64,000 bases of DNA from Lytechinus pictus (lineage: Eukaryota): the NCBI RefSeq assembly GCF_037042905.1, contig NC_087245.1, positions 12,588,001-12,652,000 of the forward strand. The letters run 5' to 3'. A model generated the notes under the pieces. The model was not told where the DNA came from. It saw only the letters and a program-made list of their open reading frames with translations, and did no database searches. This document shows, one piece after another, positions 17,011 to 53,633 of the stretch. The position numbers and the translations under genes are program-made. Position 1 is the first letter of the stretch. The number at the start of each line of letters is the position of its first letter.

Positions 17011-17591
17011 TATTGCAATCAAGCAAAAAAAAAGACTTTGAATACTGCTTCCAGTATAAGCGCCTGTTGTCATGGTGAGATTGGTACCAATGACTTGATC
17101 CGTCTACAAGGAGTCCATCATCTTCTGAGGAAACACCCACCAATCCTCCGCATTCTCCCAAACTAGCTAGGCTGCTTCTTTTTATGGCTTTACAAACGAG
17201 CATAAAAGGACTCATGACAGGCCCCAGCATTTCCCCATGTTCTGATCAAGTATCTATCTTCATCTCAAGAGTATTAATACCTCCCAAATCTAATATAATG
17301 ATACGATAATGTATTTTTAAGAACATAACTCAATGGCTTGTTTTAAAAGAGGGTTTATCAATTTCTGCGTTATTCAAATTTCGGAATTGATAATCATTCT
17401 TATGTAGGTCTCATAAACAAAGTTAAACCAAGCTAATTAATCAGCTTTGGAATGATACATCAACTGGTGACGTCACTTATCTTCGCCTGGAGTTCCGCCA
17501 TGATAATTTATGACAATCAAACATAGTTGAGATGTAATATAATCATTAGGGAAATTATCTGGAAATAATGCTGCACATTGTTATGTAATTG

Positions 17592-33241: not shown

Positions 33242-36200
33242 ATGAATGAAAATATAGCCCTAGAAGTGAGATTTGGAGGAGAAACGCAAATTTACAGCCC
33301 TGCTTACAAAACATCATGGCAGGATCTTCTCGCAATGGTGAGCAACTCAATTGACTTTTTACATGTAAACTGTGTTAGAACTAAATGTCTGGATACACAG
33401 CTGCGTGGTATGGTAGTGGATCGTATTACTGAACACTTTTCATGAATTCAATCATATCAAACACATTATCCTCCTAAAATTCACCAAACTTTCACTATAA
33501 ATACACAATTACCTACAAAATATAAATATGTAAAAATTTTGCCGAAATCGTTTTTCCTTTTTACGATTGAGCTTCCAATCGGACCCCTCTTCGCATGTGA
33601 AATATTTTGGTCACTTGAAAAAGGTATCGTATGGTACCAAACGTATGTTTTCTATGGGAAAAGTTGAGAAAACAACAAAATCACGGATGAGCTTTTTTGA
33701 CCATATTTTATTATTTTTAGAATATTAAGACAGTTTGAAAATGTGTTTTGTACCACTTTTCATCTTCTTTCTATTCAAGTTCTCTTTGGAAGGATGTTGC
33801 AAAATTTTTAGCGTATGAAATGATTTTCTGATGCGTATGATGCGCGCGTTCAGTAATACAAGGCCGGTCGGTAATACAATTTGTTTTTACTTGCACGCTG
33901 TAAGCAATTTTTTATTGAATGATGTACATACACTTGCACGCTGCACTTCACCAGTACGATAATACACCAGACGGTGGACTGTACTGTTTCCAGAAGAAGA
34001 AGACAATCACTCACTATACTACTAGTAAAATAAACGTTATCTAGAATAGATGTAGATCTATATCCGAGGCGAGAGATAAAAATAATATCAGATTGTCAAA
34101 TTTCATTTAAAAAAATAAAATAAAATATTTTAAAGATAAATGAAATCAGAATACCACCCCTGAACTTATTATATTAAATCTAAGTTAAGTAGGCTGACCA
34201 CTACTTAAACTGCAAATGTGTACTAGCATGACTAGGTAGGACAAAAATAAACACTCAACACTCAGACAACAGCATTTCTAATTCTACTAAAATTAAAAAA
34301 GCATTACCTTAATATATTCTTTATTATTTAGCATTATTATCACAGACATTGCTCAAAACTTACCTCAAAATTTCCTAAATAGTGAAAAATAAGGCTTAAT
34401 TTACTTCATAAAATGTGCCTGGGATTTCTGGAAATGCATGTATCAATCAGTTCATCCCTATCTGCCTATGTAGGCTTTACTGTGGGCTAGTGGCTAAAAT
34501 AGGCATTTTAAAGTCTTTATGCTGACTTAGACTGTATGAGCCTCTGTGAGGAGCCGTGGAAACATGTCACATTGATAGATAATCAACTTGGCTGCCAGAA
34601 AATGTGAAGATGTTGCTAGTTTGACTAGATCTACTTTGTTCTCTCAAAATATAGAAAGAAAATTTGAGGCCATTTCACCTTTTGACTTTTTGGACACATG
34701 TCTACAGCACAAATCTAGTGCGATGGCATTGCCTACCCTAGATACGATTTTTTATTTTATTTGCGATAAATTTTATCTGGCATTTGAAAGTCTAACTATT
34801 AAGGTTCTAACGTTAAGAAAGATGATACACGTCAGCACTCAATCAATGAACAAGGTTTTGATATGCAGGCGATTTGTAGTGTAATAGCCAGGAGGGTTCC
34901 TAGAGATGAAGTCATTCACTAATGTACTTAATCTCCACGGAGCCAGGGATTGCCCCAATATCCTCTTCCTCCGTTAGCTTTGGACTCCGAGATCAGCAGA
35001 GAGATCCTGCACATGTAGTACATGTAATGTATTGTAAGATTGGTCAGTCAGAGAAGGTAATTGTATTCAGCAGAGAGGACTAGGACTCGAGTGAAGATGA
35101 CCTTAACATGGATTTTCAGCAAGAAATTGAGGGCAAGCATCGTAAAAGATTTCACAGTGTCTGCAGGGAGGTCTTGGTTTGGGAGGAGAATTAGCAGGGA
35201 GACTGACACTCATTCCCAAATCAGGCAGCATCTTGTTGACATTCGATGTTAAAGTGACTCGCTGAGAATGTAGATGGCTACAAGAGGAGATGAAGCGAAG
35301 GGTGTTTTCATCATCATCTTTGCATAGCAGGCAGGATCTCTACACACACCTCGCCAGGAGGCTCCTAGAGAGTAAAAGTCATTCACTGACGTGTGCTTAC
35401 TCTCCATGGAGCCAGGGATTGTGCCCCTATCCTGTGCGTATACCGCGGTCAAACTTGAAATTTTCAGCCCCGAGATTTCTAATTTCCCTGTAAAAGATCT
35501 GTTGTGTAGCCCTAAATCATGTAAATGGGTTAGAACTTCATTTCCAACATTTATACAATATTGCTTACATTTTAAACAAATATTAATAAAAAAAAACAAA
35601 GGTATTTTGAGAATACGGGAAAAAACTTGCCGATGTTTACGTGGCCATCTTGTTTTCTTTGTTAGTAGCGTACATGTAGCTACGAGATGAATATAGAGGC
35701 GGCAGATGTCTGCTGCTGGCTCTGTGAAGAGTAAGCACACGTTAGTGAATGATTATTGCTTTCTAGGAGCCTCCTGGCTACGCACACCGTAGTTATTTTT
35801 ACAATTAAGAGTTCTTGCCCTCAGTTATGTAAATGGGCTACAACTTCATCTCCCCCTTAGACACTAATGATTGTATATTTTTTTTTAATGAAAATTAATT
35901 GTTAAATTAAGAAAAAGATCATAAGAAGATGAGCAGTTACTCACGGATGTTATAGTCGCCATCTTGTCGTCTTTGTTATTGTAGCCTATCTACGACATGC
36001 GTATAGTAGGCGGCAACATCATGAGCGATGCTAGATAAAAAATGTGCGCATTGGCCGATAAATATCACATGTGAATCTCACCTCGATGATAAAATATCCC
36101 GCATGCTAGACCAGTTAAAGCGGGATTTAGCATCGAGGTGAGATTCATGATATTTATTGGCCAATGGCATGCACACATTTTTTATTGAATAATCATAGCA

Positions 36201-39200
36201 CTCTCATTTTATGCCATTCACTGTATATTATTATTACATTGGTGTTCTCTTTAACTGACCAAATTGACCAAGGGCCTTCTCCTCTTTCACAGGTCATACT
36301 TTATGTACTGAAGATTCATTGGATGTTCATGATAACTTATACCCATTAACAGTTTCTTGAAGTCCTTTCCTTTAAGCTTCATGGTTGTTTAAAGTGATCT
36401 ACATGTATAGTTAACAGTTAACTCACATACTCATGCTGTATTGTTTATATTTCTTGCAGCTCAAGTGTTCTTTTGATTTGGAAGATGTCTTTGCAACCTA
36501 CATTGATGATGAGGAAGATGAGGTACTTTGTAAAGATGACATTATTTTCTTGACAGTGGTTGTAGTTTGTTTCTAACTTTGGTGGCCATATTCTTTCTTC
36601 AAAGTTGTAAAAGTGGATGAATTAAAATAAATGATACAGTGGAATGATCTTCAATTAGAAATGCCATCTACAGAGTAAATCCATGGTTGCTTTCACTACT
36701 TTTCAGTATTATTCACTTTGAGTGAACAATCAGTAAAAGATGACCAAATTCACCATTGTTCATCTGCTTTAGTAGCATACAATTTCTACCGGTAAATAGA
36801 GAGAACATGCTCAATGAACAGAACTGACTAATAAAACTATAGTAACCCCTTTTTTATTCCTACATGTACATACACTGTACATTTGTGACTGGATCTTTCC
36901 ATTTGAATTTTTCATTCAGCTTGGGATAGAATGTATTACATCAATGACTGAATTGAATTACATTAATATATTCTAACATAATTTGTCAAGTGGGATTTGT
37001 TATAGTTGAGGTAAATGTATTATGTGTAGTGTACAAGTGTAGAAGAAATTGAAGAATGTTGAGTCATGCCCTCATTTGCACATGACTAATATATTCAATA
37101 TTTTCATTTTTTGTTCATCACCAACTTGTATTTTAACCTTCATTTTTGTCTCACCTGCATAGCAGAGTGAGACTATAGGCGCCGCTTTTCCGACGGCGAC
37201 GGCGACGGCGGCGGCGGCGGTGGCGGCGACGGCGGCGGCGGCGGCGACGGCGACGGCGACGGCGGCGTCAACACCAAATCTTAACCTGAGGTTAAGTTTT
37301 TGAAATGACAGCATAACTTAGAAAGTACATGGACCTAGTTCATGAAACTTGGCCATAAGGTTAATCAAGTATTACTGAACATCCTGCCTGAGTTTCATGT
37401 CACATGACTAAGGTCAAAGGTCATTTAGGGTCAATGAACTTAGACCATGTTGGGGGAATCAACATCAAAATCTTAACCTAAGGTTAAGTTTTTGAAATGT
37501 CATCATAACTTAGAAAATATATGGACCTAGTTCATGAAACTTATACATAAGGTTAATCAAGTATCACTGAACATCCTGCATGAGTTTCACGTCACATGAC
37601 CAAGGTCAAAGGTCATTTAGGGTCAATGAACTTTGGCCGAATTGGGGGTATCTGTTGAATTACCATCATAACTTTGAAAGTTTATGGATCTGATTCATGA
37701 AACTTGGACATAATAGTAATCAAGTATTACTGAACATCCTGTGCAAGTTTCAGGTCACATGATCAAGGTCAAAGGTCATTTAGGGTCAATGAACTTTGGC
37801 CAAATTGGGGTATTTGTTGAATTACAGCCATAAATTTGAAAGTGTGTTGGTCTAGTTCATAAAACTTGGACATAATAGTAATCAAGTATCACTGAACATC
37901 CTGTGCGAGTTTCAGGTCACATGATCAAGGTCAAAGGTCATGTAAGGTCAAAGAACTTTGGCCACGTTGGGGGTATTTTTTGAATTGCCATCATATCTCT
38001 ATAAGTGTATTGGTCTAGTTCATAAAACGTGGAAATAAGAGTAACCAAGTATCACTGAACATCTTGTGCGAGTTATAGTAGTTTTCAAAATCAGCACTGC
38101 TGCTATATTGAATCGCGTGATGCAGGTGAGACGGCCAGAGGCATTCCACTTGTTTGTCTATGGCATTAATTTCTAACCTTTGATCTTGTTATCTTTTTTT
38201 TTTTTATTATGTACAGATTGCCGTAGACACTGAAGGTAAGTGAATTATCAGTTGATGATATGATGAATTGCTTCTTCTGAATAAAAAACATATTTTGTTT
38301 TGTTTTGATATCCATTGTGATTATTTTATTTTAGTACTTTGTAAATTTTTAAGAAAAAAATATTTAAGTTATATGCTTTGCTTTAGAAAAAAATTGCTTT
38401 GGCATGTTGTCATCTGAACCTTAATTAATGTATGTTTGTGTATAAAAAAAAGTTTTAACTCAGTTTGCTTCCTGTACTATGGGAATCATGTTAAGGTGAC
38501 ACTTTCTGTTTCTAATAGTACCTGATTTGATATAAGACTGTATTAGGACTGAGTCATGTTGATAATCTCCCTGTCCAGATTCTTATACTATTCAGTAACT
38601 AATATTCTGATGTACATGTATGGATGTGGGGAACTTTCCCATAAGATTGGCAATATGATTGATGGAAGTGGAATCTCCTTGATTGTAAAGGAATTACAAT
38701 GAAGTAAGTAGTCCTGATCAAATAAGTGCAAAAAAAAAGTTTCTGAGTAAGGTTTATTAGTATCAAAGATAGTATATTTCGACAGGGCTGCACATAATGT
38801 AATGTAAGTACATGTACATCCTTGATAATATAACCATCCTACTTCCTTTATCCCAACAGAAGAATATGACCAGGCCAAAGCATTGGCTTCCAAGTGTCAG
38901 AACGTGCTTCGTCTTAGAGTCTACCCCAAAGACAAGAGACCCAGCTTGGACTCCGTTCCAAAGAAAAACACAAGTCCTCCTGAGGTAAGGTTTAGGTGTA
39001 CATACATAAATATTGTGATATGACAGAGTTCTCAATGTAAATTAGAATTTTCCACTTGCATTGGACTGATAAACATGTGTGGAACTACATACTGGTACCA
39101 ATTAACCATGATTGTACTGTCCAAACTTAACCAATTGTAACGGTACTGGGAAGTGTTTATAAAGCTATATTTGTAAGTAACACATGCCTGGTGGTCCTTT

Positions 39201-42200
39201 CTCATGCTAAGTAAAATTTCCTTGTTTAAATGACAAAATAGAAGTGCACTTTCTAGAATTCTTATTAAATCTTGACAAATAACAAACTTTGCATTCAAGA
39301 GCTTGATAAAAATGAGTTTGTTGTAAGAATATTGAATTTCACTTCAGTCAATAGAAATAACATACATTTAATTTGCATCTTCTGTTAACATATTCTATGC
39401 TCTAAATACATTTCTTTACAGACAACAGAATCTGTTAAAAGGAAGAGAATGCATGCACCACCTCGGCCAGAGAAAGAAACGCCAAACACCCAACCAGACC
39501 CTACCATCCCTAGTACCCCTCCCATCCCTGTGCCCCCACCACGCCCTAAAGTTCCACCTCGCCTGACCCGGACAAACTCCTTACCCTCCCACAAGCAGCC
39601 ACATGCTGTGAGTTCTTATGTGATGGAGGCAGTGGAGGAACTCAAACAGCTAAATATATCTACCCCAGAGCAAAGTGATGGTCCTGATAAAGAGAGAGAG
39701 GTAGGATTCAAGCTTGAAGTTTTGATTGGATTGCATATTTGACATTTGTTAACAGAATTATGTTGGGCCTAATACAGATTTGAGCACTGGTTTCTCACAG
39801 CTACCATAATAAGGCATACACAAATATGAAGAATATATTTACATGTAATTTGCAAATTGATCCACTGTGATGTTTCTTTTGCTGACTGCCTCTCTGCTTT
39901 TAGTGTTTAATTACCAGTAAATACACCAAGTGCTGTATATTATGCAGAATGCTTGTAGTACATTTCATTTCATTTCATTTATTTCCATTTCCAACAATCA
40001 TTGACAATAAGTTTGGTCCATACATCTTGATACATAATCAATGAAACAAGGACAATTTTTTAACCATACAAACCAGTTAGAAACGGAGGAGGCTGCCAAA
40101 ATGCAAAGCTTGTAGAGTTGATTAATTTTATAGCAATTATCATTGCATGGTTGTTTGATAATTATGTGAACAAGGTGTTAAAATGCAATTTAGAAAATAA
40201 AATGTGAATCCCAAGTTTGTGAGTATTAGATAAAAATGAAGTTGTGTTTGATTTATGGAGCTACGTTTGCTTGCATCTCTTTCTGCACTGGTCTTCAGGG
40301 CCCTGTTACATGATACTCTCACGTAATCATAAGGATGTATTTTATGCTTCTTTTTATTCAAATCAACTGTTTGATCAATTATTAAGCACCAGGAATAGAG
40401 GTTTTAATGGGCCCAACTTGATAATTTGAAAATTAGAAGTGGAATTCATTTTTTTTTTATGAATGAATATTCTTATCACTATGGAATACACTTATCGGAT
40501 GATTTGACTCTGCAGTTGATAGACCAGATAGTCAAAGGAGTGATTGATGGTCTTGGAAAACCTTACTTGGACAAGACCCAACCTTACCCTTGGGAGCCAT
40601 CCCAGAGAATGGCTGGGATCGGGTCCCCTGTGTGCACCACCCCTCCAACCAATGAGCAAGGGACCAAGCCCAAGAACAGAACACCAGGTGAGTTCATATT
40701 CATCATCAAACATTGATATTATCACATTGAATATACCGTAGAATTTGCCGGTATTATAACCATTCTTAGCACATGGTGATAAGTGTATTTCTTATAATTG
40801 AGAAGAGAGTGAGATGTTTGGTACTACAAAAGTGATAATGGCATACAAGTTATAGTATATTTGTCAAATTTGTTCATTTGATACTTCTGGACTCATAACA
40901 TGTATGTAATTTTGATTATAATTGGAAATTGAGATTCAGATTTTATTTCATTTATTGTATTAAACCATCATGATTGGTGGTGATTTTTTTTTAAACCTGA
41001 TTGCTAAGAAAGCATGAATGCTTGTAAGCAAGCAACCAGAGGACCGACGGCTTAAGGTCCCCTCCGAAGGACCTGGTACTGAGGATTAATGCCTTACCAA
41101 AGGGCACTAGCGCACCAAGTGGGAATCGAACCCGGGTCACCGGAATACGAGTCCCCCGCTCCTACCGACTGAGCTATCGCGCCTCCATGATCTAAAAAAA
41201 AAAAAAGATGATTCGATACACAAAAATGGATTAAGAATATATATGTACTTTTATTTTAATTGATGAATATGAATTTAGATGATTTTATTGTAATCAATCA
41301 TGAAAAATGTCATATTCCATAATATAAATGGAAAATTGTTAATGAGAAACATACATGTACACATTATACTGAACATGCTATCCCTTTAGTTTTTTGTTAA
41401 TAATGTAGGTAAATTTGGATTAATTATGCTTATTGTCAATTTTATTCTTTAACTTTATCAAATGTTTCTTTCTTTTTAATCCCCCTCGTAGCCAAGCTAG
41501 TACATACAGGTGTAAAATGTGACAAGTGTGATTGTGTTATCGCTGGCATCAGATACAAATGTGGGTGAGTATAAACCTCCAAATGAAATTTAGATATTTA
41601 TTTCTCATTTGTTATAGGTTTTCAACATAAAACAAAGAAGAGTTTGCAAGCTGAAACGTTTTAATTGTGGTTCAAATAGAAGACTAAATGGTAAACAAAA
41701 AAATGTGAATATGGAGTATACCATTGTTGCTGAGAATACAGCAATTATGGGTGTGTAACTGAGTTTTGTCAGACGTGTATCAATCAGATATGATTATTTA
41801 TGCTGGGACCGACCTTTAACGTCACCATCCGAAATGCTTGACCAATGGTCGATCCTCTACATCAATTTGCAACTTCCTCACATAGTTTGGATTACAGTAG
41901 CACACCACAATGCCAAGCAAGTAGGTGTTAATGCTAAATTTTTGAAGACCAGCAGAATTAATTCAAGTGTCAACTAGGGTTTGTACCTGCAAACTAATCT
42001 TAGCAATGTTCACTAAGAAATGTGAAAAAAAATTGGGACATTTAAATTTATCTGGTCAAGTTAAATTTTTGATCTTGTGCTATGAACAATGATTTATAAC
42101 ATTTATTCAAGCATACAAACATATATATGGAACTTGTGAGGATAAAATACCATGAGAGACTATGAGTTTACACCCTAAACGCATTTGTACCAGTTTCATA

Positions 42201-45200
42201 TTGTGGATTTTATATCCTTCCATTTCAGCCATTGCCTGAACTTTGACCTATGTGAAGAGTGTGAAGCTCTACCTGGTGCGCATGATGTTAACCATGTGTT
42301 CCTGAAGCTCAAACGACCAGCATACCGTATTGGAATGAAGTCTGATGGAAGGACTGCTCCTATCTTCAAACATCCTATCTATGCTGATGATGACACACCT
42401 GTCTGGGAATACAAGTCAGTTGGATTCCAGTGCTTACAATTAATACTGAAACATTTTAGTTAAATGCAACAGACCCCCCCCCCCCCCAAAAAAAAAAAAA
42501 AAAAAAAAAAAAAGAATAACCCCCAAAAGAATGCCCTCCAAACTATGATTATTTAAATTCTGAATTCAGTCAATTTTCTTTCAATCTGTTTTAGATTGTG
42601 GGACATATTTTTCATCCAATATACCGGTAATTGTATTCAATGACCATGAATTAAAAATCAAACTTTCATAGTCATACATGAGTTGTGTTGTACTACTTAG
42701 CATGATTTGTGTTACTTGTCTTCAGGAATGTTATTGAATGATAGTGACGTTCACCATATGAAGTCAAATACGCGCATGTTCAAATTCTTAAACAAAATTT
42801 CTACTTCATTTTAAGCTAAAACTGGCTTTAAAATTTAAAATATGACTGATTTTCCTCTTGATTTTTTTTTTCTTCATAGGATCAAGAAACTTGAAGAGAA
42901 GATGGCCAGGAAAGCTGCTCGGGCAGAGCTCAAGCGAAAGTACCGAGAGGAGAAGCGCCGTGTCAGGGTCGAGTGTCACAGCCAGGTATCACCAACTAAG
43001 AGAGAGAGGATAGAGAAGATGGCTGAGAAGCAGGCCGAACAGATTGTGGTTGCTGCAAGTGTGGCTGCTTTCCCTACAACCTCTACCACTTCAGCAGCAG
43101 ATTCCACCTCTGAAACAACTCCTCTGCTTGCACTGTAAGTTATTCTTAAAACTCCTTGTGTTGTCATCCTATAATTATAATTCTATAGAGATTTATTGAT
43201 CACTAGTAATCAAATACCTTGTAGGAGGGAGTTTCAGTATCAAGAGGTTGAGTGATACAAGTCTTGATGGGTAGTTACTCTCAAGAAAACCATTATATTT
43301 GACCTATACACACAATGTAAAAGAAGTATGTCTTTTCAAATAGATCAATGATATTAAGATTATGTCAGGAACATTTGTTTTGTTAAGATTAACAATTATT
43401 AGTTCTACTTCTTTATGATTTACACAGAACGAAGTTTGATGCTGCCTTTGTTAGTGATGGTAACTTGCCAGATGAGACCCATCTTCAACCCATGACTAAG
43501 TTTGTCAAGAGCTGGATCATGATCAACAATGGTAGTGTGCAGTGGAACTCAGATACCAAGGTAAGAAATAATATACAACAGACCACAGGCTCTTTCACAC
43601 AAAACACTGTCCAGGCCTTACGGCAGGTTAAAAAAAAATCTGATTGAAATGAATGAGTCATGTTCTATTTGGTGAAGTAGTTCTTGTCAAACATGTAGTC
43701 ACCAGAAGAGTAACTTGAACAGTTTTTAAGCAATCACTCTGGGAGTGATTTGATAAATATGGAATCCAATTACTAAGGCCAGTACCACAAAGCTTTACTA
43801 TTGATCACAGGACCGATTTAACTCTGGATTGCATTGATGATTATGTGCAATCATTTGTAAAATGCCAGTTGTAGAATAAATTGGTATGGAGTGATTGGAG
43901 ACAACGGAGACATACATTAGTATGCTAAAAGAAAGAAGAGTTTATTGCTTGTCAGTAATCTATTAATTGAAATGAAATGTCAATTGCACTAACACAATGA
44001 ACATCTCACTCCTATTTGCTCCAGGAGAGGAAGGACTAATCTACATGGAATTTTTGGTAAAAATTTGTTTTATATGTAATCAACCATTTTGAATCAAATG
44101 TTTAATTTCAGTTGAGGTACCTGTGGGGTAACATCAAAGTCCTTTCCCCTGACCCAATGATTATCCCACTCCTGTTACCGGGAGAGGAAGGACCCATCTG
44201 TGTGGACTTTGAAGCACCTGCCAAACCAGGCCACTATCAGAGTCACTGGAGACTTACACAGAAGGGAGAACAGTTTGGCCATCGTGTCTGGTGCAATATT
44301 ATTGTGGATGAGGCTGAAATCTTGGAGCCGAAGTGTGAGAGCAAGAAAACTGTGCAGGAGGAGCTGATTATACCAAAAGTTAAGGTTAGTCATGTCAGTG
44401 GTTATAATCATGTGGTTCCATTCAAGATTCTCAAACACAACTATAGCTAAATCCATTTGGCCAACTAGCAGTTAAGTCTAATTTTTGTTTTTGTCCAATT
44501 ATCACTTGTTTGTATACTTGCATGTGCTTGGTATCATTTTGTCCAATTGACGTTTCTCATGACAAATGGTGTGATTGCCATTTTGTCAAATATGATCAAC
44601 TTTGTGGTCTGGGACAAAGTTGTTGACATTCCATGTTATCTTCTAATGCTTTCCCTTAGGAGAATGATGGAGTCCAGACTGAGACCAGTGAGAATACAGC
44701 ATCAAGTGCCGTGGCCCACCTCCAGAGTGACCAATCAGATAACGGCTCTCCGACCAGGATGGTCTCATCCTCTGATGTTCTCACTGCCCATGATGTCCTC
44801 TCATTTGAACTGCTCAGTATCCATGATGACCAGGATGCAGACAAGGAAGTTGCTGGCCTGAACAGTCCTGCTGCCACTACTACACCTAACAATACTCCAA
44901 TAGGTAAGGAGAGAATCATTTTGGATCATCTGTTGTAAATGTGATTAATGGTCATACGAGAAGCAGGAACTAGGAAACATGAATTGTGCCTCACTTGTGT
45001 ATTAGAATTATTTTTAAATTACCTACCCTTCTTTTAGAGTGAGCTTTCCCCCATTGTTTTGCAGAAAATTGAAAGAAAAAAGCCCCTTTTCTTTGCACCC
45101 CTCAAAATATGATACCTTGGATCCACCCCGGGAGTTACAGGACCCTGTAAATCGACATTCCATTGACAAATCATGGGGAAATCAAGGCTAATCTCAGAAC

Positions 45201-48200
45201 AGCAAAGGGATTCAAGTCTTTCACTCGGCTGCATGCCTGGGGGTGTTATGTAATAGACGCCGGCATGTCTGGGAGGTCTAATATAGGAGAGCAATAGTTA
45301 GTAGACTAACCAACTAGGAATAAACTGCTTGTTTTCACTTTGAAACATGTAACTTCACAGAGGTTATTTATTTTGGTTTAGCAATCAAGAGACCTGCTAA
45401 GAGTTTAGGAATTGGGATTGTTGGAAACTAGAACTGCGACGACCTGAAGTAAATAACCATCACGAGTTCGGTCAAATTCATGCTGTCCGAACTTTTATTG
45501 CATTAGTCGTACCAGAAAAAAAATTGACAAGCAAAAAAAAAAAAAAAAGGTCTTCAACCACAAATAAAGGATTTCGTCCCAGAAAAAAATTTGACAAGCA
45601 AAAAAAAAAAAAGGTCTTCAAGACTCGTCAGGGGGGGGGGGGGGGCGGGGCAGGGATATGTCCCTTGCATGGGTTGTGACTCGTCAGGGGGGGCAGTCTG
45701 CCCCCCCCCTTTCTCGTAGGTACGCTAGTGCCTGGAGTGATTCAAATGCAATTTTTGTCTCGCCCACCAGAGGTGAAGGCGAGACTTAGGGATCCAAATG
45801 TTGTCCGTCGTCCGTCCGTCACAAACCTTATGACACATAACTCCACAACCGTAAGTCGCTTTTCAACCAAACTTGGATGGTAGATGGACTAGGGGGACCT
45901 GCATGTTAGGCTGCAGTCAGAGGTCACATGGTAAGGTCAAAGGTCATTTTCAGGTCAACGTTAAAGTTTACATGCAAGACTCTTATGACACCTAACTCCG
46001 CAACCGTAATTCACTTTTCAACCAAACTTGGATGGTAGATGGATTGGGGGACTTGCGTGTTATGCTGCAGTCCGAGGTCACATGGTAAGGTCAAAGGTCA
46101 TTTTCAGGTCAACGTTAAAGTTTACATGCAAGACTCTGTTATGACACCTGACTCCGCAACCGTAAGTCACTATTTAACCAAACTTGGATGGTAGATGGAT
46201 TGGGGGACCTGCATGTTATGCTGCAGTGGGAGGTCACATGGTAAGGTCAAAGGTCATTTTCAGGTCCACATTAAAGTTTACGTGCAAGGTTCTTATGACA
46301 AGTGTTATTCCATCCCAGTCATTTCACAATGAAGTTTCGATACAGTTATGTTGCCTGCCCTCGCAAATCACGATATTTCTGGTTATTTTCATAAGTGGGC
46401 GAGACACAAAATCGCTTTTGCCTTGTTTTTAGAAGATTAATCTGTGAAAAAGTGTTTTCCTTTAGAGTCTTCAGGCATGTAACTTATCAAAAGCTTGCTT
46501 ATTGTGATTGCTTGAGGATTGAGATATGAAGAAACCATTTGTTTGTATGTAAGTAAACCTCAGGAGTGAGAGTACTTACATATCAATACCTTACCAAAGA
46601 CTGCCAGCTTAACCAACTGGTTTCCAACCAAACAGATTATTGATTACCAGACAAACGACCTACCAACCGAGCAATCCCACCTTCTGAAAGCTTTACCTTT
46701 GTATTTCTCTCTTTACAGTTGGACTGACCCCCTGTATCTCACCCATCCCTCAGCTGGATGAGAAGCTCCTATGCCGTAGGGTATCTGAACACAGTGATCT
46801 TGAGATTATCCATCGTGAAGACATCCCAGAGATCATTGAAACCCAGGATACAGTCAAAGATGGACCAGCCATGGAGATAGCTCAGGATGGTGTTCCAGTA
46901 GCATCCTCTTTCTCTGATAATGAAGGTATAAAACACATGTATCCAGTCAATAGTAACAATTATATCATGTATTAAGTGGATTCTTATCAAATAATATTAT
47001 GTATGAATTTACCAGCTTGTGTTTTTAATGATCTTTACCATGTATATTTCTGAGAATGTTTTACTTATCACTTTGATCGGAGCTTTACAAGTAATTTAAG
47101 TATCACAAATCATCTACAGTTGTGATTTCCATTGAAATTTTACAATCGTATTCATTTTGTGACACTTCAGTTACAATGACTTTGATACATCCCAATTTTT
47201 ATCTATGAAACAGTTGAAATAGGCATTTATTCTCCATGATTGTCTCTTTTCTTTGCCTTTATTGTATTATGTTTTATTGTTCTTGTTTATTTTCAGATGA
47301 GTTAGAGAGTATCTGTAGTTCATCTGATAGTGACATGCTTGATGACTACTGCGTGGTACCTCTACCAGATTGCTTTGATCCATCTAAACCTTTGGATAAA
47401 TCCATGATCCTCTCTAGGACGTCCATGTCTTCATCATTGGTAGGTAACTCTACAAAAGAATGCTAGTCAGCTTGGTCGATTGCTGATTGGTTTACACCCG
47501 CTTTCCATTTGGTCTCATCACACATGGTTCATCCTAGTTTGTCTGCAACCAGTTCTTATACGAACCATTAGGTCATATTGCCATTTAGCCCATTTGTCAT
47601 TTGGTCTAATTTTTGGGCTTTACCTATTTTTTGTCCAATATCCACTTGTCTACACCTCTTAAGGGTATATGGTTAGATGAACTGTATATGAAAGAAATTT
47701 CATTTGACAAAGGAAAGATGATAAGCAAATGAAGAGGAAATTAGACCATCTGGGCATCTAAATGAGAATTAGACTAAGTGGATATTGGATCAAGTATAGT
47801 GTAGACAAATTGGTAGTAGATCAATTGGGTTTAGCCCTTGTGGTATTTGACTATCTAAAAGGTAGACCAAGTGAATATAAATCTTCACTGATGACATGAT
47901 ACTTGCTCCTCTTTTTATTTCTTGAAAGACATACAGTTGTGCTCCAAAGTTAGCGAACCCCACCACAAAGTGCACTCCTTCATGCTGAGTGTTGAATATA
48001 GACAACAAGACTACAATGTTCAGCAAGCCCAGAGAAACAAACTTTATTGAATGTAATAGTATATCACCTGACTTCACAATTAAATATAAAAAACATGGCA
48101 GAACTTGAACACTTTTCTTGTAGGGTTCACTAAATTTTGAGCACTGCTGTGGTTCATACGTGTAATGTGATAGGGTTTTTAGTACAGGATAATGTCAGAT

Positions 48201-51200
48201 TACATTTAGATTATGTTTTAGGTTAGGTTTTTTCAATCCATTTAATGTTCAGATTTTCCATTGGCGCAATTTTAGCGGAAGCAATTGTCATGGAATCATC
48301 AATGTTTTCCCCAAGCAACCTCTCCTCATATTTCTGTAAGGAATAGATAAGGGAGGACTACACTTTACCCCCTTATTGATAGAAAATAATAGGTGAAGAA
48401 GATTTGAATAATCAAAACTTCGTAGAATATCATTCACTTGTTTCAACAACGTTAAGTAATGAATATGAAATGTTGGTTATGTTTGCATGTTTACATTTGT
48501 TGAAGTCTTCAACTTACATTGGAGGTTGCAATCATTGTTTACGTTTTTGGTACAGTTTAATAATGGACGTTCTTGATAATTGAAGTGGAATGTGTTGCAT
48601 TCATTGCATTGGGTATGCAAAATCAGCATTTAGTTTAGGTTATATTAGGTTATTGTGATAATATTTGGAATCCTTAAATGTCTTATCGATTAATTTGATC
48701 CCAGACCTCTAGCATTCTAGCACCAAGTGCTGAGAGCGCACCCCTGGTCAGGTTACCTAGTTATGAAGAGAGCCAGGCAGAGATCGAAAGCACCTCCACT
48801 TCTGAAGGTCCCTCCATGTCGGAAAGTTCATCCATGTCTCCAAAAGCATCCACTCCCATCATCATAGAGGAAGAAGTTCCTCAGTTTTCCGCAGCTGCTG
48901 CCCCTGAAGACAATGCAACTCCATCTGCTGAACAAGACCATGGAAAGGCAGAAGAGATCATCCAGATGGAAAAGGTCCAAGCAGAAGACTCTATCAATGC
49001 TGAACCATCCGTAGATGCCATCCTAAGCACTTCAAACCCTGCTCTGGAAATCACCCCTCTCATCCCATTAGTGGCTGCTACCCCTGTTCAGAAGCAGCAG
49101 GTCAGTGATGCTACCATCCCGTCCCCCAAGCCAACCACACCCAGCCAGGAGACAGTCACAGTTGCACCCATGCCAGAGATCACTCTCCTGGCTAGTCCAG
49201 TACCAACCCAGTCTGAGGAGGCTGTGCTGATTAACCCAGAAGGGAGTGTCCTGTACGCCACAAGACAGCGTGAGGTAAGAATGAATATTTTACATGTACA
49301 TAAACCACATTAATTGGAACTTGGCTTGTTGGTGAAATCAACCATCCAATTGGTTCATTGACAGTGCACCCTGTTGCGTCGTGCACTCATTGTAAATCTT
49401 AAACACTCCAAGCTTTGGGCTTGAAGCTCTCTGAATGTAGTATTTTATTTATCAAGAAATGTCAGAATCTTTAACTTTAGTAGGAGAAAGACGTTAGTAG
49501 TGGTACATGTGTATACAAATCCCAGCAGTGATGAATTATCACATATCTTTTTTTCACTTATCAGGTTGTGAGAGAGTCTCGTACAACCCCTGCTGTTGGT
49601 GGTGCTGAAGGGACCAACCTTGACTTGATTGAAACAACTGTCCAACCTCAAGAGACAAAGGTCAGTATAGAAACACAGCGACCTGGTGAGAATTTCTTGA
49701 AAAGCTCTGTTAGTGACATTCACTGATTAATTTTGCCTTAGCCAATGAGATTCAATGACTTGCAGTGAGCTTATATTATCTGTTGGTGAATATCACTGAT
49801 GAAACTTTTCATGAAATGCCCCACTAAAATTCACAAAGGTTTTAAAGTTTAATCAGTTTAAGGGCCCTGTCATGTCGTTCTGTTCAAGCCTTGTGTTTGA
49901 CTTGCGGATTACTATTGTTTGCTACACGCTGGTCACCCATATTGACAGTATCTCGCATGTATCTCACACGCAGTTGCCTGCTGAAGCGCACGTACCGTAA
50001 GTCTAATTTGCACGCAGAAAAGTTTTGAACACGCTTAAAACTTTGTTGCGTTTGTTGCAGAGTTTTGAGTGATTGCCTGCATCTTGCCCTCAAGGCTTGC
50101 ATGGAACGATGTGACAGGGCCTTAAATTAGGTATCTTTACCTTAACCAGCTTTGTCACATTGGGATTTCACAGTGGCTTTTCTGATCCCTCATGTTTTAG
50201 AAAATGGAGGGTTAAAGGCAAGAAAAATATTGAGTGGGATTCCCACTAAAAGTGCTGAAATTTTATTCAGAATTTTGTCAATTACCTCAAGAGATTGACT
50301 TTGAAGCTAGCAAAGAAATCCAATGCCATTGGCCACTGTAAGAAAGGAATAAGAAATGTAAGTGATAAGGTGTTTAAATCTATCCTAGAATCATATACTG
50401 AGGACAACTCTATATCTTTTACATATTAATAGGCCCTGTTATATGAGATAATGGTCAATGTCATGAAGCCCACAGTGTAGGAAAGTGGACTGTAAATTAC
50501 TCATAGCATTAATATCAAGGTAGAGTCTTTGAAATAAAGTTCAATGGTTATCCTATCATAGTAAGGTGTTACATGGCTAAAGCGAGTCAGGTTTGTAAAA
50601 TAATGAATACTTCCTGGAAACTGGGTAATGCTAAATTGTGGAAAATCGGCAATGTGAATAAGCACATGTGGGTATGTGTAATATTATATATTGGGGAAAA
50701 AGATCCATTAATTACTCATTTTCTATCAAAATAATTGGGCATGTATTATTTGTTCATATTTCCAATCACTCCATATTACTTTTGTTGGATTATTTTCTGA
50801 GTTTATTTTGTAGTCATTACTTGAATGCATGTTCAATGTTCATAGGTCCAAGAACCTGAGAGGCATGAGGATCATGATGATGAGTTCCATGATGCTCAAG
50901 ATGTACCAACCCAGCAGATGAATACCCAATATAACAACACCTACAGTGATGTCCAACTTGAAACTGACCCAGTTGATCTCCTAGGGTAAGTCTTCTCCAT
51001 GGCTTCATCACTCAAATAAAAGGGCTCCCAGACATATGAAGACGTGGCATGGGGGTTCTAAATCACCACCCCACCCACAATAACATTTCTTTCTCACATA
51101 TTCCCATATACACTGATTTTTTTTTCAATCTGTCCACAACCCAGGGAGCGATATTTTAAAAGAAAATTTAAAATGTTTTTAAACACAATTTAAGATGTCT

Positions 51201-53633
51201 TTCAAATGGTTGTTTTCCGTTTCCTGGACAAATCATGGGTTAGATTATGTGTATCATGATATACATGTATGTGCTGTTTTTACATTTTGTTTATGTATTT
51301 TTAGTTAAGTAAGACACTCATGACACTATTCTGATTATCTTGTCATTGGCAGGTACACTGCTGCACGAGCAGTAGAAGTAGCAGGTAGTGTTGTTAGACA
51401 AGCCTTTGATACAGCTGCTAGCTCTGTGAATGCCCTTCTAAGACCACAGGTAAGAGTCTTTTCATAGTAAAAGAAAGACAAATCATCCCTTTTCCATATT
51501 TTGGCCTCATATTTGAAAGCAATTGTTCAATTTTTATTCTTTTTTTAATATTAAAACATAACTTTTTACGTCATAATGTAATAAGATCAATTCAAACACT
51601 GCTTTTTAGCAAACATTTGAAAATTAATTGTATTAGGTAATGTTAGGAGAAAGTTGTGAACTATCAAAGGACTCAAACTGATTCTTCTCAATTCTCAGAG
51701 ATGAAATGAAGAGGGACTGGAAAAAAAATCAAGAATGAAAGAGGGGAATAGTGATAAAAAGGAGATAAGTAAGAGGGTTAGACTGTTTGGGGAAGGATTC
51801 CATACATAAATTAATAAGTTTTTTGTAGGTGGGTTTTTGAAGGCCAAGACTCATCAATTTTAATGGGGAACGTAGTCATTGGTTGTTTACTTGGTTACAG
51901 CTGTTGTTCAACCCATAGAATGGAGTCTGCTTTTGTGACCTACATGTACAGGGCAGGGCACGACAAACCCGCTTGCCCGGGGCAAGTGAAAATGATGTGC
52001 GGGCAAGCATTTCTCAAAGTCAATTGCCCGATCGAGCAAGTGGTTGTTTTGGAAATAAAATATCAGTTGACCCTCTAAATTTCAATATCTTTTGGATAAT
52101 CACAACTATCTCTCAGATTATGTCAAACCAGTAAAAAAAAACAGTGGAAACTGATGTAAAATCAGCGCCAATTACCTCGTTCGAAAAACCGTGCCATTGC
52201 ATCTTACGTTCTATGTGTACAATGACTGCGCATGCGCTACTTGAGCAATTTGCCAATATGCACACCCCAAAAAAAAAAAACCAAAAGGGGCTTAAATTTC
52301 ACATTTTGCAAAAATCCATGAAATGGCCATCTATTTTCCATATTACCTTGAACTTGTTTTGATTTAGTTGGAAACTACTGAAAAAATGAAGAATATTCAG
52401 CTCTTTCTTGACTCTCTTTCTTTACTCTGATTTATGATGGTGTTACACTCGGTAAATGTTTTTTATTATTGTGGACCCACATGTAGACTTTCATGTTGAC
52501 CAAGTGTAAAACGATCAAACGATACGATCAATGATCAATGCTGCAACACCATGAAAAAAAAAAAAACATGAAAGTCTACATGCGGGACTACAATAACAAA
52601 AATATTGACCGAGTGTAACATCATAAAATGATGAAGAAAAGACAAGAAAGAGGTGAAAATTTAAGGAAATATGGAAAATAAATGACCATTTCAAGGATTT
52701 AAAGATGCAAAATGTGAAATTTTAGCCACTCCACTTTTGATTTTTTTTTTTTTTTTTTAACATCATAAAACGATCTTTTTCAGGGTCAATAAAGAGCTGA
52801 ATATTTTTCACTGGCTTTCTTTATAGTTTCCAACTAAATCAAAACAATTCTAAGGAAAAAAATGGCAAACAGATAACCATTTCGTGGATTTAAAGATGCA
52901 AAATATGAAATTTTAGCAACTTTTGGTGAAGGTTTTTTTAAACCTTAAATTAAACCCCATTTATAAATAGTGAAAAAAAATCAAAATAAACGCAATGACT
53001 CAGGCCTACGTTGCTGAACATAAACTTTTAAATGTGTGTTCTTTTATACTGCACATGATTCTCAATTGTTGTTATTTTGTATGACCTTTAAAAATAAGAG
53101 TAGTGCCGTCATAATAAAAAAAAATTATAAAACAAATAGGGCAAGCAGTTTTTTCTATCGGGCAAGTAAATTTGTAGAGGCCTGGGTCTGTTGATGCTCT
53201 GTTAATTCCACTTATGATATCATATGGTATTGTCATTATCTCATTTATTCTAGTTAATGATGCCTGAAGTAATTTGAAGATTCTCTATGCTGGGGCAACT
53301 GATTTAGCTGCCCCTACCCCTCCCAGAACCTCTATTACAGGTAGTTCAATGCTATTCACAAAATGCTGAGTCATCAAAGTATAATTGTTTCAATGAAAAC
53401 TGCAAAATATCTCAACTTATAGCATCATTTTGCCTTTCATTTGACAGCCCATCCCCATGCCTGCCCCATACGAACCACCAAGCCTCTCACCTATGGACCA
53501 GCTGATTGAGATGGGCTTCGGGAACAGGACTAAGAACCAAGAACTACTAGAGAAGCATAATGATGATGTGTCAAGGTGTGTCCAGGATCTCCTTCAAGCA
53601 GAGGAAAATAATTGGTCCGATACCAGACACTAG
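33242..53633 (+). CDS. NBR1: NBR1 (next to BRCA1 gene 1) selective autophagy receptor, ~1118 aa, 19 coding exons
   Basis: Exons (GT-AG, phases consistent, 3357 nt total): 33242-33337, 36460-36522, 38217-38235, 38860-38984 (PB1, OPCA motif YIDDEEDE), 39422-39700, 40516-40687, 41492-41564, 42229-42414 (ZZ: CDKC..RYKCGHCLNFDLCEEC..H..H), 42880-43134 (coiled coil), 43428-43560, 44112-44384 (FW domain: FVKSW..NNG..W, YQSHWRL..QFGHRVWC), 44660-44903 (DVLSFELL), 46719-46925, 47297-47439 (LIR DDYCVVPLPDCFD), 48705-49274, 49565-49660, 50846-50985, 51353-51449 (amphipathic helix), 53448-53633 (UBA: LIEMGFGNR..W..RH*). Confidence 0.95.
34887..36030. repeat. Complex of direct and inverted repeats in NBR1 intron 1 (decayed DNA element)
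   Basis: GCCAGGAGGCTCCTAGA..TCATTCACT..GTGTGCTTACTC at ~35353, inverted copy at ~35715-35778 and diverged direct copy at ~34887; the block GCCATCTTGT..CTTTGTTA..AGGCGGCA is repeated at ~35644 and ~35958. Confidence 0.6.
36036..36185. mobile_element. 150-bp palindromic element
   Basis: Arms ATAAAAAATGTG..CATTGGCC.ATAAATATCA..TGAATCTCACCTCGATG / CATCGAGGTGAGATTCA.TGATATTTATTGGCCAATG..CACATTTTTTAT. Confidence 0.7.
37143..38154 (+). mobile_element. HINE/pearl/Tsp-type element, family 2
   Basis: Subterminal IR GTCTCACCTGCA (37148) / TGCAGGTGAGAC (38121), partial inner IR GTGAGAC, (GGC/GAC)n microsatellite, ~4.5 internal repeats of 162-192 bp, T-run flanks. Confidence 0.8.
40971..41186 (-). mobile_element. 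tRNA-derived SINE (family B), full copy
   Basis: Minus-strand box A TAGCTCAGTCGG and box B GGTTCGATTCC; body CTTCGGAGGGGACCTTAAGCCGTCGGTCC; paralogous to 27681-27872. Confidence 0.85.
45752..46427 (+). mobile_element. HINE/pearl/Tsp-type element, family 1
   Basis: Reverse complement of 14452-15122; GTCTCGCCCAC / GTGGGCGAGAC IR, (GTCC)n, three ~155-bp repeats. Confidence 0.8.
49862..50122. mobile_element. PIF/Harbinger (Tourist-like) MITE
   Basis: TAA|GGGCCCTGTCATGTCGTTC...GAACGATGTGACAGGGCCT|TAA; 3-bp TAA TSD. Confidence 0.8.
51954..53184. mobile_element. hAT-like non-autonomous element with internal long palindrome
   Basis: Imperfect TIR CAGGGCACGACAAA / TTTGTAGAGGCCTG; subterminal GGGCAAG repeats at both ends; inverted arms ~52290-52730. 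No TSD found. Confidence 0.6.

What the first reader, a model, noticed from the sequence alone, without database searches (positions are those of the whole stretch)
50852..50902. FFAT-like motif in NBR1: possible VAP-anchored ER/contact-site autophagy receptor
Seen: exon 50846-50985 encodes EPERHEDHDD-EFHDAQD. Established: the FFAT consensus is an acidic tract followed by EFFDAxE and binds the VAP MSP domain; soluble ER-phagy receptors (S. pombe Epr1, CALCOCO1) combine FFAT-type and LIR/AIM motifs. Here it lies between the LIR (YCVV, 47347-47358) and the amphipathic helix-UBA. I do not recall an FFAT described for vertebrate NBR1. Inference: this NBR1 may bridge ER-resident VAP, ATG8 and ubiquitinated cargo.
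Basis: partly seen in the sequence, partly recalled or inferred. Interest (0 to 1): 0.7.

Follow-up and report, generated by a model that had tools for sequence, protein, structure and literature searches.

The report
Echinoderm NBR1 carries conserved FFAT-like motif
The autophagy receptor NBR1 of sea urchins, starfish and their relatives carries a short, expressed, strictly conserved peptide resembling the tag that docks proteins on the ER anchor VAP, absent from the vertebrate copies sampled; it likely lets the receptor hold its cargo against the endoplasmic reticulum, but binding is predicted, not shown.

Summary
Exon 50846-50985 is exon 17 of a 19-exon sea-urchin NBR1 gene (1118 aa, identical to the Lytechinus pictus record). 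RNA reads join it on both sides, and skipping it breaks the frame. The core EFHDAQD (50882-50902) lies in predicted disorder and scores 1 on a re-derived FFAT matrix (11 of 600 whole-protein shuffles do as well). FHDA is the only invariant stretch of a 132-residue linker in 10 of 10 echinoderm orthologues from all five classes, with acid at -1 and +7 and a free position 6: the FFAT pattern. The same FHDA core is needed for VAP recruitment by Toxoplasma ROP1. None of 19 vertebrate-clade NBR1s scores below 3; other invertebrates are patchy. A predicted complex with a stand-in VAP gave weak support only. Best reading: a lineage-specific VAP-binding motif about 30 residues before the membrane-binding helix and UBA, likely tethering ubiquitinated cargo to the ER. 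ER-phagy is possible but untested. The invariant His is not explained by FFAT rules, so a caspase site (EFHD/A) stays a rival. No NBR1 FFAT found in the papers searched. New variant of a known kind; interest 0.5.

The parts
33242..53633 (+). NBR1 coding gene, 19 exons, 1118 aa (exons 33242-33337, 36460-36522, 38217-38235, 38860-38984, 39422-39700, 40516-40687, 41492-41564, 42229-42414, 42880-43134, 43428-43560, 44112-44384, 44660-44903, 46719-46925, 47297-47439, 48705-49274, 49565-49660, 50846-50985, 51353-51449, 53448-53633)
   Evidence: one open frame, all introns GT-AG; identical to P0002; five 3' junctions seen in RNA reads and contigs
50846..50985 (+). exon 17, carries the motif; needed for frame
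   Evidence: joints 49660>50846 (8 and 2 reads in X19, X20; contigs in X1, X7) and 50985>51353 (8 and 3 reads; contigs); skipping gives a stop at aa 990
50864..50881 (+). upstream acidic tract HEDHDD (positions -6 to -1), 4 acidic residues
   Evidence: 3-4 acids in 10 of 10 echinoderm orthologues, position -1 acidic in 10 of 10
50882..50902 (+). FFAT-like core EFHDAQD, aa 991-997; invariant FHDA at 50885-50896
   Evidence: score 1; FHDA in 10 of 10 orthologues, position 7 D/E in 10 of 10, position 6 variable; predicted coil, pLDDT under 50
47347..47358 (+). LIR-type core YCVV (aa 726-729) after an acidic run; aligns with the YIII/YIIV block of vertebrate NBR1
   Evidence: ATG8 binding not tested
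50969..51440 (+). predicted amphipathic helix (AH), aa 1020-1054, split over exons 17 and 18
   Evidence: helix in AlphaFold model, block pLDDT 65-71; best 18-mer hydrophobic moment 0.58; AH role from the NBR1 review
53490..53597 (+). UBA domain, aa 1072-1107
   Evidence: PF24932 match, E 6e-5 on the exon, below curated cut-off; three helices, pLDDT 86-89
43428..44384 (+). FW (four-tryptophan, Ig-like) domain over exons 10-11, diagnostic of NBR1
   Evidence: PF16158
41492..42414 (+). ZZ zinc finger over exons 7-8
   Evidence: PF00569
33242..38984 (+). PB1 domain over exons 1-4
   Evidence: PF00564

Best explanation
Exon 17 of this sea-urchin NBR1 gene is spliced into the mRNA and encodes an acidic tract plus EFHDAQD whose FHDA core is invariant in echinoderms, and this peptide likely binds the MSP domain of ER-resident VAP, which would hold NBR1 and the ubiquitinated cargo gripped by its nearby helix and UBA domain against the ER. 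Shown: sequence, expression, conservation, predicted disorder. Inferred (about 0.7): VAP binding, with Phe992 and Ala995 in the two hydrophobic pockets and Asp994 on the lysine pair, as in solved FFAT complexes. Inferred further: because the motif sits only 29-61 residues before the amphipathic helix, which with the UBA targets mammalian NBR1 to ubiquitinated peroxisomes and late endosomes, the C-terminal 130 residues would form a short ER-to-cargo bridge, placing cargo where VAP also recruits FIP200/ULK1/WIPI2, while the LIR 145-403 residues upstream engages ATG8 on the growing phagophore. The ER would be the platform rather than the cargo.
For: Exon included, frame-essential. Score 1, 11 of 600 shuffles as good; 9 of 10 echinoderm motifs score under 3, 7 of 10 at most 2 against 0.56 expected from shuffles. 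FHDA are the only 4 of 132 linker columns invariant in 10 of 10; 10 of 10 further echinoderm cluster members that include the C-terminus also have it. Pattern of constraint matches FFAT structure: 2, 4, 5 fixed, 7 acidic, 6 free (pockets described in PMC7705450). All four prediction criteria of Mikitova and Levine are met or plausible. TgROP1 motif DDTFHDALQE: F166A abolishes VAPA enrichment and MSP mutants fail (PMC12669048), so His at 3 is compatible with VAP recruitment; the crinoid motif TFHDA has the same five core residues. Complex prediction: weak support, score 0.52, best of 3 controls 0.01, runs agree in at least 79% of contacts, partner pLDDT at least 49; the mark was reached by 51 of 78 solved and 2 of 108 mismatched pairs, but at 0.60 or under by only 5 of the 78 and by all 4 mismatches that passed (of 180); peptides and disordered chains are untested, FFAT-VAP complexes are solved so the pass may be from memory, and the VAP was a stand-in. 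AH/UBA role in pexophagy.
Against: No binding, localisation or function measured. His3 is invariant although FFAT rules leave position 3 loose and one transition would give the better-scoring Tyr; FFAT alone does not explain that. Position 1 drifts to Val in 4 of 10 (scores 2-3). Low scores are common: 2,079 of 20,373 human proteins score below 3 as phospho-FFAT and 124 of 600 shuffles reach 2.5. The motif-to-helix spacing varies as much in relative terms (29-61) as motif-to-LIR (145-403), so spacing is short but not shown to be constrained. Vertebrate and arthropod-clade NBR1 work without it (0 of 19 and 0 of 15 below 3). No echinoderm VAP sequence was examined.
Confidence: 0.5

Rival explanations
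1. Soluble ER-phagy receptor: the motif binds VAP and the LIR binds ATG8, so ER membrane itself is the cargo.
For: Same sequence evidence for VAP binding as above. FFAT plus LIR/AIM in one disordered chain is the known minimal design; such short-motif receptor functions are described as gained and lost often.
Against: No data on ER turnover. NBR1 has its own cargo-binding AH and UBA right beside the motif; the NBR1 review mentions neither VAP nor FFAT and lists no ER-phagy role in the passages seen. Many FFAT plus ATG8-binding proteins (ORP1L, FIP200, ULK1) use the ER as platform.
Confidence: 0.2
2. The constrained element is read by something other than, or in addition to, VAP; most concretely a caspase site EFHD/A that cuts the helix-UBA end off NBR1 (as caspases do to p62) and would at once destroy the FFAT.
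For: P2 His, P1 Asp and small P1' Ala are the preferences of inflammatory/initiator caspases (PMC12550167) and are exactly the invariant H, D, A; site is in exposed disorder; explains His3. The hemichordate Ptychodera keeps HDA but not F at the aligned place. Caspase cleavage of p62 is in print (search listing only).
Against: Caspases prefer Glu at P3 and bulky/defined P4; here P3 is invariant Phe and P4 varies (E/V/T). It does not explain the fixed acid at +7 and -1. No echinoderm caspase specificity data seen; no NBR1 caspase-site paper in the 9 listed (titles and abstracts only).
Confidence: 0.2
3. Chance resemblance in an acidic, low-complexity linker with no function.
For: FFAT-like scores are frequent by chance; the finding was picked by eye from a whole gene.
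Against: Invariance across five classes in an otherwise unalignable linker (0 of 5000 shuffles); synonymous-only change in the His codon in a related organism's contig (position 50890). The shuffle test treats related sequences as independent, but neighbouring residues share the same ancestry and are not kept.
Confidence: 0.05

Closest known systems
NBR1 (vertebrate selective autophagy receptor; review PMC9582228)
   Same: PB1-ZZ-coiled coil-FW-LIR-AH-UBA order; groups with deuterostome NBR1 in the tree
   Different: longer LIR-UBA linker (322 aa against about 105-200) with an FFAT-like motif; 0 of 19 vertebrate-clade linkers score below 3 (best 3, medaka)
Conventional FFAT motif (EFFDAxE; ELM TRG_ER_FFAT_1) of OSBP/ORP, CERT, Nir2, VPS13
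   Same: acidic tract, Phe2, Asp4, Ala5, free 6, acidic 7; unstructured context
   Different: invariant His at 3; host protein is an autophagy receptor, not a lipid-transfer protein; binding not measured
Toxoplasma ROP1 FFAT-like motif DDTFHDALQE (PMC12669048)
   Same: identical FHDA core with upstream acids; Phe needed for VAPA recruitment
   Different: parasite mimic anchored at the vacuole membrane; unrelated protein; Gln at 7; convergence, not homology
Soluble ER-phagy receptors CALCOCO1 (FFFSTQD) and S. pombe Epr1
   Same: VAP-binding-type motif and ATG8-binding motif in one soluble chain; lineage-restricted short motifs
   Different: those have shown VAP binding and ER turnover; CALCOCO1 binds no ubiquitin, whereas NBR1 has UBA and a membrane helix beside the motif

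Membership tests
NBR1 | FW domain with PB1 and ZZ before it | tested here: met
   Pfam above cut-off for all three
NBR1 | LIR, amphipathic helix and C-terminal UBA | tested here: met
   conserved LIR block, helix and UBA fold; UBA Pfam score below cut-off; activities not assayed
FFAT / FFAT-like motif | at most 2 sub-optimal elements (or score under 3) on the position weight matrix | tested here: met
   score 1; matrix re-derived from Table EV4 and checked by hand on 9 of 9 published rows, not the original Murphy/Slee-Levine file
FFAT / FFAT-like motif | critical residues conserved more than neighbours | tested here: met
   4 of 132 columns invariant, all in the core
FFAT / FFAT-like motif | unstructured, non-helical, cytoplasmic context | tested here: met
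   coil, pLDDT under 50 for 537-1019; cytoplasmic location follows from the family, not tested
FFAT / FFAT-like motif | exact canonical consensus EFFDAxE | tested here: not met
   His at 3, Asp at 7
FFAT / FFAT-like motif | binds the VAP MSP domain, lost in KD/MD mutant | tested here: inconclusive
   prediction only, weak support, 0.52 against best control 0.01, stand-in VAP, like complexes solved; real binding not testable here
Soluble ER-phagy receptor (Epr1/CALCOCO1 type) | VAP-type motif and ATG8 motif in one soluble protein | tested here: met
   both present by sequence
Soluble ER-phagy receptor (Epr1/CALCOCO1 type) | required for lysosomal turnover of ER | not testable with these tools
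   needs cell assays
Caspase cleavage site (group I / initiator) | P1 Asp, P2 His, small P1' | tested here: met
   H993-D994-A995 invariant
Caspase cleavage site (group I / initiator) | P3 Glu, P4 Trp/Leu | tested here: not met
   P3 Phe in 10 of 10, P4 E/V/T

The most novel reading that the evidence does not exclude
Echinoderm NBR1 is a three-way bridge (VAP on the ER, ATG8 on the phagophore, ubiquitinated organelle through AH-UBA) whose ER anchor doubles as a caspase switch: a cut at EFHD/A would destroy the FFAT and free the cargo-binding end. FFAT-like motifs in the same linker of oyster, nemertean, annelid and hemichordate NBR1 would then mean that VAP docking was repeatedly gained, or ancestral in bilaterians and lost in vertebrates.
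Probability: 0.12. Interest if true: 0.8.

Novelty: new variant of a known kind. Interest (0 to 1): 0.5.

Why it matters
NBR1 is regarded as the archetypal selective autophagy receptor, and how receptors bring cargo to ER sites of autophagosome formation is an open question. A direct VAP-binding motif beside the cargo-binding end would be a natural, single-motif solution that the sampled vertebrates lack, and it can be tested cheaply with a peptide or by grafting onto human NBR1. It would add NBR1 to the short list of receptors with VAP motifs and give a second, independent FHDA-type FFAT, suggesting that matrices under-rate His at position 3. The limits: both the motif class and the protein are well known, the trait is lineage-restricted, and binding is not shown.

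Tried and rejected
Alternative exon-16 donors (49664, 49685, 49708, 49712) and exon-17 skipping: only donor 49660 (and a weak in-frame 49708) with exon 17 keep the frame; RNA uses 49660. No skipping joint is among the 14 joints shown, 43 weaker rows were not shown and depth was low (about 6% of each run), so rare skipping is not excluded. The run index listed no holder on record as RNA (no RNA holder listed; no evidence either way); raw RNA runs came in by species label. Non-canonical LIR reading of FHDA rejected: position 4 is Ala, not L/I/V (consensus recalled). Pan-animal conservation rejected: linker score at most 2 in 0 of 19 vertebrate-clade, 0 of 15 arthropod-clade, 1 of 4 hemichordate/amphioxus and 4 of 27 lophotrochozoan/other proteins (1.11 expected; at most 1 in 3 of 27, 0.15 expected), and those motifs are not FHDA and not at one place; scallops show only decayed forms, and abalone, limpet, octopus and chiton none. 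Spacing constraint between motif and helix: not supported. Slee and Levine 2019 was not held and Murphy and Levine 2016 was not read, so the original conventional matrix was not seen; supplement files 11 and 13 of PMC7705450 were not searched. Human NBR1 was not retrieved; it is absent from Table EV1 by name and by a recalled accession, which only says it has no phospho-FFAT score of 3 or less. No echinoderm VAP was obtained. The tree is the quick version, used only to place unnamed rows. Rfam found nothing in the window. No earlier scan finding concerns NBR1.

Full report
1. Observation. Positions 50852-50902 read EPERHEDHDDEFHDAQD inside an exon bounded by AG/GT at 50846-50985. Nineteen exons from 33242 to 53633 join into one open frame of 1118 residues, identical to P0002, named 'next to BRCA1 gene 1 protein-like [Lytechinus pictus]'. 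Pfam gives PB1, ZZ and FW above cut-off and the NBR1 UBA below cut-off. An AlphaFold model built on 10 echinoderm sequences shows folded PB1, FW and UBA, a helix at 1020-1054, and coil with pLDDT under 50 over 537-1019, which includes both the LIR (aa 726-729, YCVV at 47347-47358) and the motif (aa 991-997).

2. Expression. Exon 17 enters in phase 0 and leaves in phase 2; leaving it out stops the frame at aa 990 and loses helix and UBA. In two raw RNA runs (about 6% of each read) 8 and 2 reads join 49660 to 50846 and 8 and 3 join 50985 to 51353, all in the orientation expected of a + strand RNA; one contig in each of two assembled runs shows the same joints. No skipping joint is among the 14 rows shown; 43 weaker rows were hidden. 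In the run from the second organism the His codon differs by a synonymous change (50890 T>C).

3. Score. The original conventional matrix was not available. I took the phospho-FFAT matrix of Di Mattia 2020 (PMC7705450, Table EV4 read whole), set position 4 to D/E, and checked it by hand on 9 published conventional rows, four of them with His at 3; 9 of 9 were reproduced. The motif scores 1 (His at 3 is the only penalty), the next best site in the protein 3. Shuffling the whole protein gives 1 or better in 11 of 600 trials, 2.5 or better in 124 of 600. Published cut-offs are below 3 (PMC8306308, passages) or at most 2 sub-optimal elements (PMC3261905, passages). A score alone is modest evidence: 2,079 of 20,373 human proteins fall below 3 on the phospho version.

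4. Conservation, the main result. Three homologue searches and one profile search gave 10 full-length echinoderm NBR1s: three sea urchins, two brittle-star-clade, three starfish-clade, one sea cucumber, one crinoid (names; two unnamed rows placed by a quick tree). All 10 have FHDA. In the 132-residue stretch between the previous conserved block and the helix these four are the only invariant columns, and FHDA is the only 4-mer shared by five class representatives; 0 of 5000 shuffles share any 4-mer (the test ignores relatedness, but the neighbours share the same ancestry and diverged). Position -1 and position 7 are acidic in 10 of 10, position 6 takes four residues, position 1 is E (5), V (4) or T (1). 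Scores are 1-3, 9 of 10 below 3. Of 17 further echinoderm cluster members, the 10 that include the C-terminus all have FHDA; 7 are fragments of other regions. Outside echinoderms, among 75 proteins with LIR and UBA blocks: 0 of 19 vertebrate-clade and 0 of 15 arthropod-clade linkers score below 3; 1 of 4 hemichordate/amphioxus and 4 of 27 lophotrochozoan/other score at most 2 (1.11 expected for the latter; 3 of 27 at most 1 against 0.15) with different cores and places. Proteins lacking a recognisable LIR or UBA block (fungal, plant-like, partial) were left out of these counts. Human NBR1 was not in the sample. The motif is thus an echinoderm trait, with scattered look-alikes elsewhere.

5. 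Is it read by VAP? In solved complexes residue 2 and residue 5 fill two hydrophobic pockets and residue 4 meets two lysines, the positions fixed here. The Toxoplasma protein ROP1 carries DDTFHDALQE; its F166A mutant fails to enrich VAPA and MSP mutants abolish the contact (PMC12669048, passages and one section), so an FHDA core can recruit VAP in cells. To model binding I fetched VAP-family genes from metagenome contigs with the published VAP consensus; one animal-like MSP domain (L056; PF00635; E 8e-63 to solved VAP-A) keeps all 11 contact residues checked (seven of these lie in or next to the search pattern). Its predicted complex with aa 979-1016 gave weak support: score 0.52, best of 3 controls 0.01, runs agreeing in at least 79% of contacts, partner pLDDT at least 49. 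The tool's mark was reached by 51 of 78 solved and 2 of 108 mismatched pairs, but at 0.60 or under by only 5 of the 78 and by all 4 passing mismatches of 180; on eukaryotes by 39 of 65 solved pairs without a like complex and 2 of 126 unrelated pairs; peptides and disordered chains are untested, the alignments were not used, the VAP is a stand-in, and like complexes are solved, so the pass may reflect memory. I put VAP binding at about 0.7.

6. Mechanism. In mammals the amphipathic helix folds on phosphoinositide membranes and, with the UBA, targets NBR1 to ubiquitinated peroxisomes and late endosomes (PMC9582228, passages). The echinoderm motif lies 29-61 residues before that helix and 145-403 after the LIR. 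The simplest working model (0.5) is an ER-to-cargo tether: VAP holds the motif, helix and UBA hold the ubiquitinated organelle or aggregate, and the LIR reaches ATG8 on a phagophore forming at VAP-rich ER, where FIP200, ULK1 and WIPI2 also dock. All of this is inferred. The ER-phagy reading (0.2) needs the same binding but makes ER the cargo, as for CALCOCO1 (PMC7396842, passages) and Epr1 (PMC8997447, passages); nothing here tests it. The invariant His is the loose end: FFAT rules do not ask for it and Tyr, one transition away, would score better. His-Asp/Ala matches caspase preferences at P2, P1 and P1' but Phe at P3 and E/V/T at P4 do not (PMC12550167, passages), and a caspase site would not need the acid at +7. 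I give a second or other reader 0.2; both uses could coexist. Chance is 0.05.

7. Novelty. Searches for NBR1+FFAT (23 papers), NBR1+VAPA+VAPB+interact (24), NBR1+echinoderm+autophagy receptor (4), FHDA+FFAT (11) and an NBR1 evolution query (15 of 95 listed) showed no title or abstract start describing an FFAT in NBR1; I saw listings for most and passages for the papers cited. The 2022 NBR1 review has 0 occurrences of FFAT or VAP, and the sea-cucumber xenophagy paper mentions only UBD and LIR (PMC8902612). The library lacks most subscription papers, so absence from print is not proven. No earlier scan finding concerns NBR1. Verdict: a real, expressed, conserved FFAT-like motif in a known receptor; a new variant of a known kind, binding and role untested; interest 0.5.

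Noticed in passing
window 49008-49085 (aa 857-883); P0009 aa 740-930: A second conserved linker block (VDA.L.TS...PLIP) between LIR and FFAT is kept from echinoderms to molluscs and vertebrates and is tandemly repeated about six times in starfish NBR1; several copies end in QT, recalling dynein light chain LC8 sites (recalled, untested).
   Followed up: no
window 44786-44822 (aa 601-613): Conserved block around LSFELL after the FW domain, matched by vertebrate NBR1 (15-34 bits on a local profile); probably the second LIR (recalled).
   Followed up: partly
P0025, P0032, P0203, P0014, P0012, P0035: Separate strong FFAT-like motifs in the LIR-to-C-terminus region of pearl oyster (EFFEALS, 1), an unnamed bivalve-clade protein (TFEDAFE, 1), Lineus (SFSDASE, 1), Owenia (EYLECVQ, 2), Saccoglossus (TFSECDS, 1) and an unnamed protein (EFEDARE, 1): possible repeated gain or ancestral motif with turnover.
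   Followed up: partly
P0010 (Ptychodera flava) about aa 930-940: RRHDASG at the place aligned with the echinoderm motif: His-Asp-Ala kept, Phe and upstream acids lost; record is flagged low quality.
   Followed up: partly
P0014, P0022, P0023, P0025-P0028 and other lophotrochozoan NBR1: Proline/tryptophan repeats (PP..W) between the amphipathic helix and the UBA, absent in echinoderms and vertebrates.
   Followed up: no
P0015, P0040, P0145: Long fungal NBR1-like proteins share a C-terminal acidic xY(E/Q)DSRS motif scoring 3 on the FFAT matrix.
   Followed up: no
window 7658-7891, 11043-11276, 17094-17306 (+): Short exon-like open stretches of an upstream gene; two were scanned and gave no Pfam match.
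   Followed up: partly
window 12103-13170: About 1 kb (GAT/GGT)n microsatellite causing the strong GC skew.
   Followed up: no
window 47930-48115 and 49930-50125: Intronic interspersed repeats drawing heavy two-strand read coverage, the second with inverted joints; transposon-like, not part of NBR1 mRNA.
   Followed up: no
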